Positions 12,001-18,000 are shown, counted from the stretch's first letter. The stretch: DNA of 64,000 nt from Candidatus Aenigmatarchaeota archaeon (GCA_039000165.1 JAWBTW010000002.1:1-64000), one strand, 5' to 3'. Numbers are program-made.

Positions 12001-15000
12001 TCGAAAACTTTAACGTTTATAGGTGTTTGACCTGAATGAAAAAGTTGAGCGTAAACTGAAGATGGTACTGTAAGAAATAGTATCAAGAAAAACAAAATGG
12101 TTTTTTTCATAATTATATTTTCTCCTTTGAGGTTAAAATAATTAAAAAACCAAAACGCATATAAGCTACTCATTCGAATTATAAAAAGTGAGAGATGTTA
12201 AAAAGTCTATTTTTTTACTATTAACTTTCTTTTCTTTAATAAGTTATCCAGCAAAAGCAGGGCTAATGGTTGTTAAAGGAAGTTTACAACTTAAACCCTT
12301 AGATTCCATAGAAGTTTGTGATGCTGCTTGCGTGTTCTCAACCTATTCTTCTCCAATAAGTTGTAGAGTAGAAGGAAGTAAAGAAATAAATAAATTTTTA
12401 GAACCTTTAGAGTCTTTTCAGTTAACCGAAAATATTCTGGATTGTCCTTCGGAGCCTGAAGCAAGAAGGGAATGTATAGCTTCAAATTGCTCTTTAACTT
12501 CAAACAAAGCAAGGCTTGTTTGCTTAAAGTTTAAGGGTCCTCTTGAGTTCACTTTCAAGCCTAGCTTTGAACTTTACCCAGAAAAAATAGAATACAGAGG
12601 GGCTATAAAAGCAGTTTGTCAGGCTGGAGCTGCCACAACAGTAGAGCCTTTAGATTTTTGGGTTAATTTCTATCCATTAAATTTATTCCCACTACTTTTA
12701 GGAATATGTACAATTGTTTTAGTGTTAATTCTACTATTCTTTTTAGTAAAAAAAGGTAAAGTAAAAATTGTTCCTTAAGTTATCTTACTCACAAATAGCG
12801 TTTCCTGCTGTTGCGTTGACACAGTACCAATATGTAGTCTCGTAAGTTCCGCTTGGAATTCCTGCAGGCACATCTAACCAAAACGCTAAGTAACAAGCAT
12901 CGTTTTGGTTAAGTCCATGACAAGGTGTAGAAGCTCCACCGATAGGCTCATAGGTAGTTGTTAATGGATAGTTCCCATCTGTGTTGTAAAGATTTTCTCC
13001 GCTTTGAGTGGTATTTGCTTCGTGTGTCAGATTGCCCAAACCTATCTTGTAGGTATTAAAGGATAAATCTCCGGTAGCTTTATGCCACAGGTTCACAGGA
13101 CTTGTAGCGGCAGTAATAGTGATAGAATAATTTGTTGGTGTTCCAGAATTACCAATAGCTTTATTGTTGTTTGTGCCAGGAGAAACTTGACCGAACCTTA
13201 TTCCGCCTCCAAGCTCGGGAGATAAGGTTATCGAAATGATTTGGCCTACTGTTGCATTTATTTTTACACTACTTGAATATACGTCGGATTTTACTGCATA
13301 AGCTAGTACCAGAAATACAATTGCTGGAATAATATATCTAAGTTTTATTTCTACTACCATGAATAAAATTTGGTTTTTTTATCTTATAAGGATTATCACT
13401 AATGTTAACAATCACCACAAATGGAAGAACCTCCTCCTTCATAGACAGCACAAAAACAATACCTTCTTTCAAAGTATTGGGAAGAAGTACCTTGTTCTAC
13501 ATCTATAAAATACCTCACCCAGCAACTATTTCCTGGAAATATTGCACTACAATTTACCGAAGAATTACCCATAATTTTCCATTCACTTGATAAAGTAGTG
13601 TTGGAAGAAAACCCTTCAAGCTCGCTTGTTCTACTTGAAGATTCATTTATGTATATACTTGAATGAGTTTCGTTTATTCTGTGGTAAAAATCAGCGTTTA
13701 TGTTTGAGGAAGTACCAAGTGTTAGGTTATACTGCGTTCCGCCATTAGGCAAACCTGAGTTGTTCAAAGCAGGTTTACCCACAGTTCCAGGATTAACCAA
13801 ACCAAAGGATATGCCTTCTATCAAAGCTTGGGAAATTGTTAGCTCAATATACTTGCTAACATTAAAAGTTGTTGAATTGGTAGCAATATTTCCAGAAGTA
13901 TCGTTTGCTGTAACATTAATAACCCAGATTCCAGCAGGCTCCCCTCCAGCTAGAGTATAATTTTTCTCCCAAACAGAACAATTTTCACCACAAGATATAA
14001 GAGTATTAAACATAAGTTCATTTGTTAAAACCAGTGTTCCATTACTAGCGGTTAGGTTTAACCAAACGTATTGAACATCATTTTCTGTATCACTAACATT
14101 TACTCTTATTATAACTTTTTCATTTATTTTGAAGACTGAAATCTCTACCAAAGATTCGTTAAACGTTAGTGGGATTTCAACAAAAGGAATAGCGTTTATG
14201 CTTACAAAAAAAATAAATGAAAAGAATAAGACGAAAAATAAAAGCTTTTCTTTCATACCACTCAATTTTAATTATTTTTTTGCTCAGAAATATATTTGCG
14301 TTTTAAACTCCAATAAATATATGAGAGTTATTCAGGTTATTTAACTTATAAAGTGAAAAGTAATGACTTGTATAACAAGACTAACTTTACAAGGTTTTAA
14401 AAGTTTCAACAAGAAGATTTCAATTCCTTTTCTTAGGGGTTTCAATATAATTTGTGGCCCAAACGGAAGCGGAAAATCTAACATAGTAGATTCTGTATGC
14501 TTTGTTTTAGGAAGAATTTCGGCTAAAAGTTTAAGAGCAGAAAGGCTTCATGAACTTATTTTTCACGGTGGAAATGGAAAGGCTCCTGCTCAGTACGCTT
14601 CTGTAACTTTATACCTTGACAATTCAAATAAAGAATTTCCTTTTGATGAGCCAGAAATTTCTATAACAAGAAAAGTTAACAGAAAAGGAGTTTCCGTTTA
14701 CAAGCTTCAGGGAAGAACTACAACAAGAGAAAAAATTCTAGAAATTCTTTCAGCAGCAAGAATTAGACCAGATGGACATAATATAATACTGCAAGGTGAT
14801 GTAACAAATATAATAGAAATGAGCCCAATAGAAAGAAGATTTATAATAGACGAAATTTCTGGCATAGCCGAATATAACGATAAAAAAGAAAAAGCTCAAA
14901 GAGAATTGGAAGCTGTAGATCAAAAGCTCAAGGAAGCAGAAATAATAATAACAGAAAGATATGAGATTTTTAAAAAGCTAGAAGAAGAAAGAAATACTGC

Positions 15001-18000
15001 CATAAAATATCAAACTTTACAAAAACAGCTACAAACTCTCAAAGCTTCCTTAATTTTTAGAAAAATAAAGAATTTTGAAGAAATGATAAAAACTTTAGAT
15101 CAAGAAATAGCAAAAGGGGAAGAAGAAAATAGAAAAGTTCAGGAAGAACTTGAAAGAATAGAGGAAGAGCTTGAGAAAAAAGAAAGAAGTATAAGAGAGC
15201 TTGCTGACAAGCTAATTCAGTTATCAAAAAAGGTTGAAATAGAAAAAGAAATTTCTTACCTGAGAACGAAAATTCTTTTCAACAAGGATAAGCTTGACTC
15301 AAACTTGAAAGAAATCGAAAGGTTGGATAGATTAATAGAGAAGCTACAGGCTTTTGAGGTTAGAGAAGAAGAAATACCCGCAAGTATAAAAGCAATTTTA
15401 AGTCTTAACTTGAAGGGAGTGCTCGGAACCTTGAGAAACTTAATAAAAACTTCTCAAGAATATCAGCTTGCTGTAGAAATTGCAGCAGGCCATCATCTTA
15501 ACGATATAATAGTAGAAAATGACGAGATAGCAAGTTTTTGTATAGACTACCTTAAAAGGGAAAAAATAGGAAGAGCGACTTTTATTCCTTTGAATAAAAT
15601 AAAACCGAAAAAGCTTGATGAAAAATCTTTTAAAATAAAAGGAGTTTTGGGAAGCGTTTCAAAAGTTGTTAAATGCGATCAAAAAATTTTACCTGCGATA
15701 GAATTTGTTTTTGGAGATACCCTTCTAGTTGAAAATTTAGAAGTTGCGAAAGCTGTGGGAATAGGAAAAGTTAGAATGGTAACTCTAGACGGTGATTTGA
15801 TAGAAAGAAGTGGAGCGATGACAGGAGGTTATTTGATAAGAAAACATCCTAGAATAGCTGTAGAAACTGCTAAGGAAGAGGTTGAAGAATATATCAAACT
15901 TAAAAAAAAGTTGGAAGAAGAAAATGAAACCTTAAAAAAAGAAATAAAAGAACTGGAAGAAAAATTGAAAAACTATTCTCAAGCGGAGGAAACCAAAGAA
16001 ATAATCAATTTAGAAAAAATTAAAATAGATTCCGAGTTTGAGCTCGACAAGCTTAGAAACGAAAGAAAAAGAGCTTATGAAAAAAGACTTAATATCCAAA
16101 CAAAGCTAAACAAACTAAAAATTCAAAAAGCAAAGGTTGAAGCTGAGCTTGAAACTCTAAAAGTAGAAGCTTTACAATATGGTGATATCAAACCTATAGA
16201 AAAGGGAATAAAAGCTTTAGAGGAAGCTATAGAACAAACCATAAGGGAACTTAACTCTTTGGGCGCAGTAAACTTTAAAGCCATAGAACAATACGAGAAA
16301 TTTAAAGCTGAGTTCGACGAATATAAGAGAAAGTACGAGAAGATACTTGAAGAGAAAAAAGCTGTTTTGGATATGATTGAAAAGATAGAAGAAAAAAGAA
16401 GAGAAGTTTTTAATAAATGTCTAAAAGAATTGAGCGAGAAGTTTAATCAAATATTTAAGAAAATGACAGGTGGTAGCGCAAGTCTTGAGTTAGAAAATCC
16501 TTTAGACCTAGAGTCAGGACTTATAATTCAAGCAAACCCAGGAGGGAAAACCTTACTGAACATAGACTCGCTTTCAGGAGGGGAAAAGACCCTAACTGCT
16601 TTAGCTTTTATCTTTGCAATTCAAAGCTATAGACCTGCTCCTTTCTACATTTTAGATGAGGTTGATGCTGCTTTGGATAAAGAGAATTCTAAAAAAGTTG
16701 CTGAACTCATAAAATCTCTTTCAAAAGAAGCTCAGTTTATTGTTATAACTCATAACGATGAGACTATTAAATATGGTGATAGGGTTTATGGTGTGACTAT
16801 GGACAAGGGAGAGTCAAAAATATTAGGGTTGGAGATGCCAGGATGAATCAAGAAGAAAATATTTTGGAGTTAATTCTTAAGAAAGAAAGTTGGGAAGAAG
16901 TTATTTACCACATAGTGAGCATAGAAAATCTTAATCCTTGGGATATAGATTTGGTTAGACTTGCGGATAGCTTTTTAAGGTATATCCAAAAGATTCAGGA
17001 ACTTGATTTCAGAATTCCTGCGAAAATTGTTTTTGTCGCTGCAGTCCTCTTGAGACTTAAAGCTGATTACTTATCATTATTCGAAGAAGAAGAAAGTGTA
17101 GAAGAGATTGCTAAAGCCGAACCTTTCGTTGACTTAGGGATAGATCCAAATTTAATTCAATTAGGTTTACCTATGAAAAGAATACCAAAGAGACAAGTAA
17201 CGCTAGAAGAACTTATCAATGCTTTAAGGAAGGCTTTAGCGGTAAGGGAAAGAAAGATTGAAAGAAAGATTATGTGGAGAGCTAGAATTCAGGCCCAAAT
17301 AAGCGAAGAAGACATAACAAAAAAGATTAATCATGTAATGAACGAAATCGACGAGCTTATCCAGAAATTAAAAGTTAATAAAATAAAGTTTAGCCAGATA
17401 GTTGAAGATTGGAACAGAGATCAAATAATCGACCATTTTGTTCCCTTGCTTCATTTAGAGCAAAATGAAAAAGTAGTTACTGAGCAAGAAGATTTTTTTA
17501 AGGATATTTTCATAACCAAAAAATCATGAGTAAGCTTAAGTTAGTAAGTTAATTTAAGCTTAAAGTTCATTATATAAGTTCAGGTGAGCAAATGAGTTTT
17601 CTTAAAGAATTCATCGATTTTATGAAAAAACAAAACGTAATAGCAGTAGCTTTAGCTTTTGTCTTAGGTATTGCAACAGCCCAACTAGTTCAAGCACTAG
17701 TAACAGACATAATAACTCCAATATACGCTCCGTATCTTGATTTTTTAAACCCAGAATTGGCCATAGAGATAGGAAAATCTAAGTTTTTAATAGGAGATTT
17801 TATAAGACAGCTAGTTAATTGGGTTGTTATTTTGCTAGTAGTTTTCATAATAGGAACAAAAATAGCAAAAACTAAGTAATTTTTTCTTGTTTTTTTAATT
17901 TTTTTGAAAAAAAATCAAATAACTCTACCAGTTTCAAGTTCCGAGAAAAAAGCTTCCTTTTTTTGCTTATTGGATTTACTTTAAATATTAATTAATTATC

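What a model noticed while it worked through the whole genome (the two positions that open the first line are those of the whole stretch)
14363..16846. SMC with half-length coiled-coil arms, conserved across the order
The Smc protein is 827 aa long, with normal head and hinge domains. The two coiled-coil strands are only about 161 and 167 residues, roughly half of canonical prokaryotic Smc. ScpA and ScpB are encoded nearby. The short form is the rule in all seven families of the order that were sampled.
Evidence so far: - Pfam: SMC_N 1.2e-73, SMC_hinge 3.1e-30. - PDB matches: head 3-181 and 677-825, hinge 343-509. - 29 of 31 genomes matched. In 22 the match runs end to end in a frame of 820-873 aa. 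Two lie in longer frames (G011 1388 aa, G036 1352 aa). The rest are cut at contig ends.
(Added by a program. Inside this text positions count along the whole contig: contig position 1 is position 1 of the stretch shown here. "Call 12" and the like, gene names such as g00115 and contig names such as C1 are that model's own, and its searches are not shown. The text may have been shortened before it was handed on; [...] marks where a part breaks off. The agent that wrote the report below was given it as the finding of a first reader that could run no searches.)

Follow-up and report, generated by a model that had tools for sequence, protein, structure and literature searches.

The report
Natural half-arm Smc condensin clade
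This archaeal genome's only Smc chromosome-organising protein has coiled-coil arms about half the usual length, and the same short form turns out to be the rule in several tiny-celled archaeal groups and in one bacterial phylum.

Summary
ORF 14363-16846 (+) encodes an 827-aa Smc with intact ATPase and hinge motifs, and it scores above NCBIfam's curated SMC cut-off. Its arm strands are about 161 and 167 residues, against about 330-340 in its nearest long relatives. That is roughly 22-25 nm instead of about 47 nm.

scpA overlaps the smc stop codon by 4 nt, and scpB lies 2.6 kb downstream. This is the genome's only hinge-bearing SMC. The other SMC_N gene is Rad50, next to Mre11.

- Order: 61 of 61 genomes.
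- Class: 100 of 101 genomes.
- Source labels name Aenigmatarchaeota.
- The same form occurs in proteins labelled Nanohaloarchaea and Naiadarchaeales.
- It is the only Smc found in a bacterial phylum labelled Bipolaricaulota (81 of 101 genomes).

An AU test does not reject a single origin. The bacterial copies nest among archaeal ones, which suggests interdomain transfer.

The "long frames" hold an insert at the Walker A site. One checked case is an intein.

Bürmann et al. 2017 already tabulated 4 of 3,337 natural Smc with arms under 200 aa and noted a "possible minor mode at 163 aa". The length class is therefore not new. Its lineage-wide fixation, clade structure and cross-domain spread appear to be undescribed.

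The parts
14363..16846 (+). smc, 827 aa: N-head 1-~168/181, N-arm ~169-333, hinge ~340-493, C-arm ~496-676 with a joint-like break at 605-638, C-head ~677-827
   Evidence: Walker A G32-K38, Q144, signature S738/G740/E741, Walker B D765-E766, H797 and hinge glycines G477/G488/G489 are invariant in 35 sequences.
16843..17529 (+). scpA (kleisin), 228 aa; its ATG overlaps the smc TGA by 4 nt (ATGA)
   Evidence: Pfam SMC_ScpA 1.7e-15. NCBIfam ScpA models match at 5.6e-15, but below their cut-offs. Overlap read. A full-length ScpA homologue lies directly after smc in the bacterial locus L057.
19464..19970 (+). scpB (kite subunit), 168 aa
   Evidence: Pfam SMC_ScpB 6.6e-39. It is the only PF04079 match in the genome.
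17592..17879 (+). small MscL-like membrane protein (95 aa) between scpA and scpB; probably a bystander, not part of the complex
   Evidence: Pfam MscL 1.7e-13.

Best explanation
This is the organism's single, functional Smc, the ATPase of an Smc-ScpAB condensin. It belongs to a natural 'mini-Smc' length class whose arm is about 165 residues per strand, roughly 22-25 nm. That is about 170-180 residues, or roughly two coiled-coil superhelical periods, shorter than the canonical arm of about 335-344 residues.

Shown:
- Head, hinge, neck and joint are conserved.
- The arm length is held almost free of indels across sequences only 36-50% identical.
- smc is translationally coupled to scpA, and scpB is close by.
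- It is the only hinge-bearing SMC in the genome.
- The form is fixed across Aenigmatarchaeota.
- It is shared with proteins labelled Nanohaloarchaea and Naiadarchaeales, and with most genomes sampled from a bacterial phylum labelled mostly Bipolaricaulota. There it is again the only Smc found.

Inferred:
- Two Smc dimerise at the hinge.
- ScpA bridges the neck of one head and the cap of the other, and ScpB dimers bind ScpA.
- The ring entraps or extrudes DNA by the usual ATP cycle, with a lumen and per-cycle DNA segment about half the usual size.
- The length is a permitted 'phase' of the periodic arm-length rule of Bürmann et al. 2017, not a decayed gene.
- All short forms share one origin, and the bacterial copies came from archaea by transfer of an smc-scpA-scpB operon.
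For: Identity as Smc:
- TIGR02169 scores 780.7 bits, above its 729.4 cut-off.
- Pfam finds SMC_N and SMC_hinge.
- PDB matches to Pyrococcus Smc reach 5.8e-125.
- The best Foldseek matches of the model are Smc4, Smc3 and the Pyrococcus Smc head with joint.
- The catalytic and hinge motifs are invariant in 35 sequences.

Arm length:
- 161/167 aa in the window protein. Across 35 sequences the ranges are 145-167 and 161-175.
- The helices and heptad signal agree with these boundaries.
- Within arm positions 170-342 and 495-700, gaps and insertions occur only at the two arm/hinge junctions, 2 columns after residue 543, and the joint loop after residue 609.

Comparison with relatives measured by the same boundaries (142 of 151 proteins measurable, the window's own among them):
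- 30 short, mean arm under 190 aa (single strands 141-174).
- 5 at 217-284.
- 19 at about 288-311.
- 88 mostly at 313-346.

Sole Smc: the other SMC_N gene is Rad50, next to Mre11.

Spread:
- 61/61 in the order, 100/101 in the class, 117/121 in the phylum sample.
- 41/41 in the order and 81/101 in the phylum of the bacterial lineage.
- That lineage is bacterial: 4-9 sigma-70 region 2 hits in each of 5 of 5 genomes.
- In those same 5 genomes the short gene is the only strong SMC_N hit.
- One search listed 120 homologues of the nanohaloarchaeal protein P0137. All 23 rows whose label names an organism name nanohaloarchaea, at 827-865 aa or about 1377-1396 aa with intein domains, plus two partial sequences. 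They include Nanohalobium constans and Nanohalococcus occultus.

One origin: constraining all 25 short rows to one side of a branch gives a log-likelihood 3.72 higher than the free tree, with p-AU 0.557.

Periodic rule: Bürmann et al. 2017 report natural modes at 238, 341 and 515 aa, 'possibly' 163 and 423, and a 91-aa period in function.
Against: - No experiment bears on function. Everything about DNA entrapment or loop extrusion is inferred from homology.
- In the only systematic test, B. subtilis Smc cut down to 136-174-aa arms essentially failed to support growth. Colony area was 0 in 34 of 39 constructs and at most 0.089 cm2, against about 1.4-2.4 cm2 for the better-growing constructs with 333-342-aa arms. 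A 160-aa arm is therefore not automatically functional.
- The difference from canonical length is 169 aa by my boundaries and about 178 by Bürmann's. This fits 2 x 91 aa only approximately.
- The free IQ-TREE search split the short forms into four pieces, and starred branches force at least two changes. A single origin is allowed, not proven.
- Which part of the canonical arm is missing could not be settled. Only the head-proximal blocks map firmly.
- Jeon et al. 2020 (PMC7055376, abstract seen in the listing) argue that archaeal Smc-ScpA may not bind ScpB. The three-subunit assembly here is therefore an assumption.
Confidence: 0.8

Rival explanations
1. The short arm is neutral decay in a streamlined genome. 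On this view the arms were trimmed because tiny DPANN cells and genomes of about 0.8 Mb tolerate it. The length itself would have no meaning, and the protein could be on its way to loss.
For: The window's genome is 0.78 Mb, and the relatives scanned in its order and class are 0.3-1.9 Mb. Other small-genome lineages also show shortened forms. Examples are Woesearchaeota-labelled loci of 954 aa and a 976-aa form in a 0.5-Mb genome with 25% GC.
Against: - The arm helices show almost no indels among sequences that are 36-50% identical. The length is held within about 20 residues across the phylum.
- All catalytic motifs are invariant.
- Other DPANN-labelled loci keep long forms: Woesearchaeota 1153-1164 aa, Parvarchaeota 1112 aa, Micrarchaeota 1121-1125 aa.
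- Bacteria with genomes of 1.0-2.8 Mb carry the same short form as their only Smc.
Confidence: 0.08
2. The short form arose several times independently, by convergence on a permitted length, in Aenigmatarchaeota, Nanohaloarchaeota, Naiadarchaeales and Bipolaricaulota. On this view there was no single origin followed by transfer.
For: - The free ML tree breaks the short forms into four pieces. P0250 and the Naiadarchaeales-labelled P0140 fall among long forms.
- Intermediate forms (arms 217-284 aa) are scattered singly inside long-form clades, so shortening does recur.
Against: - The constrained one-clade tree is better than the free tree, by 3.72 log-likelihood units, and is not rejected (p-AU 0.557).
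- 29 of 30 short representatives form one clade in FastTree.
- The bacterial group sits with the nanohaloarchaeal sequence at 100% SH-aLRT, inside the archaeal-type Smc clade, which is itself at 100%.
- P0250 has a long branch of 1.14.
Confidence: 0.2
3. It is not the housekeeping condensin but an SMC-like paralogue with another role, such as Rad50, the archaea-specific SMC-related protein, arcadin-4 or a defence SMC.
For: - NCBIfam also lists weak hits to ASRP (119.5 bits, cut-off 300), Rad50 models and arcadin-4.
- Many source records call these proteins just 'AAA family ATPase'.
Against: - All of those hits are far below their cut-offs, while TIGR02169 passes.
- A true SMC hinge with the conserved glycines is present.
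- scpA is translationally coupled and scpB is near.
- Rad50-Mre11 is encoded separately.
- No other hinge-bearing SMC exists in a genome that is 92% complete.
Confidence: 0.03
4. The short length is an assembly or gene-calling artefact, such as a collapsed repeat in the coiled coil or a truncated ORF.
For: The genome is a metagenome-type assembly of 25 contigs.
Against: - The same length is found in several hundred independent genomes and contigs. These include contigs of about 0.94-1.1 Mb labelled as nanohaloarchaeal genomes.
- The frame is uninterrupted, and both arm strands are shortened by matching amounts.
Confidence: 0.01

Closest known systems
Canonical prokaryotic Smc-ScpAB (B. subtilis Smc; Pyrococcus Smc; NCBIfam TIGR02169 SMC_prok_A, model length 1165)
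   Same: - Head, Walker A/B, Q-loop, signature motif, H-loop, hinge glycines, neck and joint.
- ScpA and ScpB partners and operon-like linkage.
- Identity to the nearest long relatives is 37-38% overall and 47% over the first 263 residues.
   Different: Each arm strand is about 165 residues instead of about 330-345. This removes about half of the rod and probably any mid-arm elbow region. Total length is 791-850 aa in the 35 aligned sequences, against about 1100-1200 aa.
Engineered 'Mini-Smc' of B. subtilis (Bürmann et al. 2017, Mol Cell, PMC5344682; passages, section 9 and Tables S1/S2 read)
   Same: The design is the same in effect: a hinge sitting on a shortened head-proximal rod. The weak colinear mapping of the distal arm blocks points the same way. 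The paper's natural-sequence survey lists a possible minor mode at 163 aa.
   Different: The engineered proteins with 136-174-aa arms did not support growth. The shortest functional construct had an arm of about 253 aa. The natural form is the sole Smc of whole lineages. The paper gives only GI numbers for 4 of 3,337 sequences with arms under 200 aa, with no lineage, phylogeny or comment.
Intermediate-arm natural Smc (about 940-1050 aa; arms 217-284 aa; Bürmann's 238-aa mode)
   Same: They are natural Smc shortened in both strands by matching amounts.
   Different: They are one step less short. In my trees they sit singly inside long-form clades rather than forming one deep clade.
Rad50 / SbcC and hinge-less archaeal SMC-related proteins (NF045487 ASRP, arcadin-4)
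   Same: They share the ABC-type SMC head and an antiparallel coiled coil of comparable or shorter length. The genome's own Rad50 is 786 aa.
   Different: They lack the SMC hinge and have no kleisin/kite partners. All such models score far below their cut-offs on this protein.

Membership tests
Smc (chromosome segregation protein SMC, TIGR02169 SMC_prok_A) | Whole-protein score above the curated equivalog cut-off | tested here: met
   780.7 bits against a cut-off of 729.4. TIGR02168 also passes, at 587.3 against 567.35.
Smc (chromosome segregation protein SMC, TIGR02169 SMC_prok_A) | Split ABC ATPase head with Walker A, Q-loop, signature motif, Walker B, D-loop and H-loop | tested here: met
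   G32/N34/G35/G37/K38, Q144, S738/G740/E741, D765/E766, L771/D772 and H797 are invariant in 35 sequences. The motif names are assigned from my own knowledge of ABC/SMC heads. Head matches to PDB 4i99 and 1xew.
Smc (chromosome segregation protein SMC, TIGR02169 SMC_prok_A) | SMC hinge dimerisation domain with conserved glycines | tested here: met
   PF06470 at 3.1e-30. Match to the Pyrococcus hinge 3nwc over residues 343-509. G477, G488 and G489 are invariant. Dimerisation itself was not tested.
Smc (chromosome segregation protein SMC, TIGR02169 SMC_prok_A) | Two long helical strands able to form an intramolecular antiparallel coiled coil, with a head-proximal joint | tested here: met
   The heptad signal and AF2 helices run 169-333 and 496-702, with matching lengths. 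The C-strand break at 605-638 and invariant G634/N637 map onto the canonical head-proximal C-arm in 78 of 78 long relatives. Strand pairing was not read from coordinates.
Smc (chromosome segregation protein SMC, TIGR02169 SMC_prok_A) | Arm of about 330-350 residues per strand (typical of the family, not a formal criterion) | tested here: not met
   161/167 residues here, against mostly 313-346 in 88 long representatives measured the same way.
Smc-ScpAB holocomplex | Kleisin ScpA and kite ScpB encoded in the genome, typically linked to smc | tested here: met
   scpA overlaps the smc stop. scpB lies at 19464-19970. smc-scpA(-scpB) order is seen in several relatives and in the bacterial locus L057.
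Smc-ScpAB holocomplex | Physical binding of ScpA N- and C-domains to the Smc neck and cap, and of ScpB to ScpA | not tested
   No complex prediction was run, because a textbook pair would pass by likeness. Binding is inferred from homology.
Rad50/SbcC | Zinc hook (CxxC) at the coiled-coil apex and an Mre11/SbcD partner | tested here: not met
   An SMC hinge sits at the apex instead. Rad50 models score 46-92 bits against cut-offs of 700-1087. The genome's Rad50-Mre11 pair is elsewhere, on contig C3.

The most novel reading that the evidence does not exclude
The mini-Smc is a distinct, ancient and mechanically 'in-phase' class of condensin, with the arm two superhelical periods shorter and no mid-arm elbow. 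It arose once in DPANN-type archaea and became their only Smc in at least three lineages. It then crossed domains as an smc-scpA-scpB operon and became the only Smc found in most sampled Bipolaricaulota. If so, a rod of about 24 nm is sufficient for all essential Smc-ScpAB functions on chromosomes of 0.5-2.8 Mb. Arm length would be set by register and phase, not by chromosome or cell size. Nature would then have solved the length that failed when engineered in B. subtilis.
Probability: 0.45. Interest if true: 0.75.

Novelty: new variant of a known kind. Interest (0 to 1): 0.62.

Why it matters
How far SMC arms matter, as ruler, lever or mere barrier, is an open question in loop-extrusion mechanics. 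Almost all work uses arms of about 50 nm.

- A natural complex with half-length arms, kept indel-free over deep divergence, is a ready-made test of the periodic arm-length rule. It also tests models in which step size or captured DNA segment scales with arm length.
- It is about 30% smaller and probably stiffer, which may suit whole-complex cryo-EM.
- It occurs in organisms whose labels include named nanohaloarchaeal co-cultures (Nanohalobium constans, Nanohalococcus occultus). Whether these are currently cultivable is my recollection, not a tool result.
- The apparent archaea-to-bacteria transfer of the whole condensin operon into a bacterial phylum would be an unusual case of replacement of a core chromosome-organising machine.
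- On the practical side, many of these genes are labelled only 'AAA family ATPase' in public records.

Tried and rejected
- Mapping which half of the canonical arm is missing. HMMs of six arm blocks were searched against 78 long relatives. Only the head-proximal blocks gave firm placements. The distal blocks scored 2-7 bits and scattered over both strands, so I claim only a weak colinear tendency.
- BLASTP against one long relative points the same way, but coiled-coil similarity is promiscuous.
- The AF2 break at 286-295 has no Gly/Pro enrichment and no indels in the alignment. I therefore do not call it an elbow.
It yielded no nanohaloarchaeal or undinarchaeal handle. Those lineages rest on source labels, not on a genome scan.
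- Source labels for the bacterial group are inconsistent. Five say Bipolaricaulota and one says Atribacteria. One cluster member is labelled Heimdallarchaeota, and the L057 record title says Thermotogae. I rely on the sigma-70 test for 'bacterial' and on the majority label for the phylum name.
- The search of earlier findings was not open.
- Five literature searches, plus passages of four further papers, found nothing on short-arm Smc in these lineages beyond Bürmann 2017. mmc1.pdf and mmc5.pdf of that paper could not be read, and bioRxiv supplements are closed.
- I did not run complex prediction, read mapping or expression checks.
- The mini-intein reading of the 998-1022-aa frames was not checked by Pfam. 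Only the 1368-aa ORF (in the 1388-aa frame) of L020 was.

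
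Full report
**The object.** The window (32% GC) carries an uninterrupted ORF at 14363-16846 on the + strand, encoding 827 aa. The evidence that it is an Smc:
- Pfam finds SMC_N (1.2e-73, spanning residues 4-817) and SMC_hinge (3.1e-30, residues 351-464).
- NCBIfam's equivalog model for archaeal-type Smc, TIGR02169, scores 780.7 bits against a curated cut-off of 729.4. Rad50, ASRP, arcadin-4 and RecN models all fall far below their cut-offs.
- Sequence matches to solved structures are dominated by Pyrococcus Smc: head plus joint 5xei at 5.8e-125, head 4i99 over residues 3-181, C-head 1xew_Y over 677-825, and hinge 3nwc over 343-509.

**Arm length, checked three ways.**
- A simple heptad-periodicity scan, with a shuffle control whose 95th percentile is 0.31, is above that level over most of 171-340 and 511-700. 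It dips below at 201-210, 221-230, 291-300 and 541-570, and falls to about zero at 601-620. It is low in the head and hinge.
- An AlphaFold2 model built on a 35-sequence alignment has mean pLDDT 81.3 and pTM 0.48. Its helices are 169-285, 296-333, 496-538, 545-604, 616-633 and 639-702, around a mixed alpha/beta hinge at 340-493.

About 155-160 helical residues per strand, at about 0.148 nm per residue (textbook coiled-coil rise), give about 23-24 nm. Scaling from Bürmann's 344 aa for about 47 nm gives about 22 nm. Foldseek places the model with Smc4, Smc3 and the Pyrococcus Smc head-with-joint and hinge structures.

**Conservation.** The alignment holds 35 sequences that are 36-94% identical to the window protein.
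- Invariant residues include the Walker A residues (G32, N34, G35, G37, K38), Q144, the signature motif (S738, G740, E741), Walker B (D765, E766), D-loop residues, H797, and the hinge glycines G477, G488 and G489. The motif names are my assignment from general knowledge of ABC/SMC heads.
- N-arm length ranges over 145-167 residues and C-arm length over 161-175.
- Within arm positions 170-342 and 495-700, gaps and insertions occur only at the two arm/hinge junctions, two columns after residue 543, and the joint loop after residue 609. The long helices have none.

This is the signature of a length and register under selection, not of decay.

**Partners and paralogues.**
- scpA (16843-17529) starts with an ATG that overlaps the smc TGA, giving ATGA.
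- A small MscL-like gene and an unannotated minus-strand ORF follow. Then comes scpB at 19464-19970, with Pfam 6.6e-39; it is the only PF04079 match in the genome.
- The 783-kb genome is estimated 91.6% complete and has one other strong SMC_N gene. That gene is a 786-aa Rad50 next to Mre11 on contig C3.

This is therefore the only hinge-bearing SMC.

**Spread in the window's own lineage.**
- Order: 61 of 61 genomes match. 49 match end to end in frames of 821-873 aa. 6 lie in long frames of 998-1398 aa with the match split after about residue 40. 6 are cut or fragmented.
- Class: 100 of 101 genomes from 26 families match. Identity falls to 37%, yet the matches still run end to end in frames of 795-873 aa or in intein-sized frames. 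The one miss is a genome that is 85% complete.
- Phylum sample: 117 of 121 genomes match, all listed as 'same class' or closer.

All 12 homologue rows whose label names an organism say Candidatus Aenigmatarchaeota or Aenigmarchaeota.

**The long frames.** Seven homologues of 1319-1394 aa carry precomputed LAGLIDADG_3 and Intein_splicing domains. The 1368-aa ORF of locus L020 has Intein_splicing at residues 56-576, directly after the P-loop. The 998-1022-aa frames may hold mini-inteins, but I did not check them.

**Comparison with relatives at large.** An exhaustive HMMER search of 1.84 billion representatives returned 150 best hits. I measured these, plus the window protein, with one boundary definition. 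Of the 151 proteins, 142 could be measured. I binned them by mean arm length:

| Class | Count | Arm length (aa) |
|---|---|---|
| Short | 30 | mean under 190; single strands 141-174 |
| Intermediate | 5 | 217-284 |
| Medium | 19 | about 288-311 |
| Long | 88 | mostly 313-346 |

The nearest long relatives are 37-38% identical. They include sequences labelled Thermococcus and Hydrothermarchaeota.

Not all DPANN-labelled genomes have the short form. Woesearchaeota loci encode 1153-1164 aa and 954 aa, Parvarchaeota 1112 aa, and Micrarchaeota 1121-1125 aa.

**Other lineages with the short form.**
- One short representative is labelled Naiadarchaeales.
- Another, P0137, is labelled Nanohaloarchaea. 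One search listed 120 of its homologues. All 23 rows whose label names an organism name nanohaloarchaea, including Nanohalobium constans (848 aa), Nanohalococcus occultus (845 aa) and Nanosalina sp. VS9-1 (850 aa). Some are intein-bearing forms of 1377-1396 aa.
- Unexpectedly, an 846-aa form with 58% GC turned up in locus L057, followed directly by scpA and scpB.

The genome holding L057 belongs to a lineage that scans as follows:
- 41 of 41 genomes of its GTDB order (1.0-2.8 Mb) carry the short form, as do 81 of 101 genomes of its phylum.
- Five of five genomes tested have 4-9 sigma-70 region 2 matches. This family rang in all 10 bacterial controls and none of the 4 archaeal ones, so the lineage is bacterial.
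- In those same five genomes the short gene is the only strong SMC_N hit.
- Five of the 20 non-matching genomes have no SMC hinge at all.
- Of six organism-naming labels among its homologues, five say Bipolaricaulota and one says Atribacteria.
- Other labels are inconsistent. One cluster member is labelled Heimdallarchaeota, and the L057 record title says Thermotogae.

**Phylogeny, on head plus hinge only, with the arms left out.**
- FastTree on 142 sequences puts 29 of 30 short forms in one clade.
- A quick IQ-TREE run on 67 rows separates archaeal-type from Bacillota-type Smc at 100% SH-aLRT. It unites the bacterial short group with the nanohaloarchaeal sequence at 100%. It leaves the base unresolved, with the short forms in four pieces.
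- The AU test does not reject one clade. Holding all 25 short rows together gives a log-likelihood 3.72 higher than the free tree, with p-AU 0.557.
- Representatives P0170 and P0180 belong to the same GTDB phylum as L057.

I read this as one origin plus a transfer from archaea into the ancestor of most of that bacterial phylum. The direction is an inference from nesting. The tree was rooted on a chosen outgroup, not on an inferred root.

**What part of the arm is gone.**
- Blocks 182-235 and 606-676 (neck and joint) map firmly onto the head-proximal ends of canonical arms in 78 of 78 long relatives.
- The remaining blocks score near noise. Their commonest placements are colinear with the head-proximal half.
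- BLASTP against a 1170-aa relative aligns residues 1-263 with 1-263, and 499-827 with 834-1168.

The hinge-proximal half is thus the likelier loss, but this is weak.

**Prior knowledge.** I read passages, section 9, and Tables S1 and S2 of Bürmann et al. 2017 (PMC5344682).
- The paper reports natural prokaryotic arm-length modes at 238, 341 and 515 aa, 'possibly' 163 and 423. It also reports a 91-aa period in the function of resized B. subtilis Smc.
- Table S1 lists 3,337 prokaryotic Smc. Four have mean arms under 200 aa (193, 173, 160 and 159), given as GI numbers only.
- The 173-aa entry has its N-head starting at residue 574. That is the layout of an intein-bearing short form. This is my inference.
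- In Table S2, constructs with 136-174-aa arms gave zero colony area in 34 of 39 cases and at most 0.089 cm2. Most constructs with 333-342-aa arms gave about 1.4-2.4 cm2.
- The shortest functional construct had an arm of about 253 aa.

Five literature searches and four further papers gave no description of short-arm Smc in these lineages.

**Verdict.** The finding is real and correctly interpreted. The length class was glimpsed in 2017. What appears to be undescribed is that it is the fixed, sole Smc of whole lineages, is held indel-free, plausibly forms one clade, and spans both prokaryotic domains. Function and mechanism are inferred from homology only.

Noticed in passing
L020:1471-5577 (G031); also the long frames: Large inteins (Intein_splicing plus LAGLIDADG_3) sit directly after the Walker A loop of Smc. 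They recur in short-form Smc of Aenigmatarchaeota and nanohaloarchaea. Representatives of canonical arm length at 1660-1805 aa have a similarly displaced N-head. Frames of about 950-1020 aa may hold mini-inteins at the same site.
   Followed up: partly
window 17592-17879 (+): A 95-aa MscL-like protein (Pfam 1.7e-13, covering profile positions 1-96 of 123) sits between scpA and scpB. It is short for an MscL.
   Followed up: no
window 10719-14265 and 18059-19213: Five ORFs of 191-484 aa flanking the smc locus have no Pfam match at E <= 0.001.
   Followed up: no
G000 contig C3, L099:1594-5225 (-): A Rad50 (786 aa) and Mre11 (424 aa) pair. Both score well below the NCBIfam equivalog cut-offs, so they are divergent.
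   Followed up: partly
L029, L039 (Woesearchaeota-labelled, 954 aa); L067 (976 aa, 25% GC, 0.5-Mb genome labelled Muribaculaceae); P0143, P0145, P0178, P0241, P0254: Intermediate-arm Smc (about 217-284 aa per strand) occur singly inside long-form clades. This suggests repeated independent shortening to other discrete lengths. The L067 label looks doubtful for such a small, AT-rich genome.
   Followed up: partly
G218, G222, G225, G255, G259 (same GTDB phylum as L057): 20 of 101 genomes of the bacterial phylum gave no Smc match. Five of them were checked and have no SMC hinge at all. Part of the phylum may lack Smc or use another condensin.
   Followed up: partly
L057:1429-2613 (+): A 394-aa coiled-coil-rich protein, with only sub-threshold filament-like Pfam hits, lies just upstream of the bacterial mini-smc operon. 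An H+-pyrophosphatase lies beyond it.
   Followed up: no
public records behind: Many short-form Smc are labelled only 'AAA family ATPase', 'hypothetical protein' or 'LAGLIDADG family homing endonuclease' in source annotations. They would be missed by name-based surveys.
   Followed up: no
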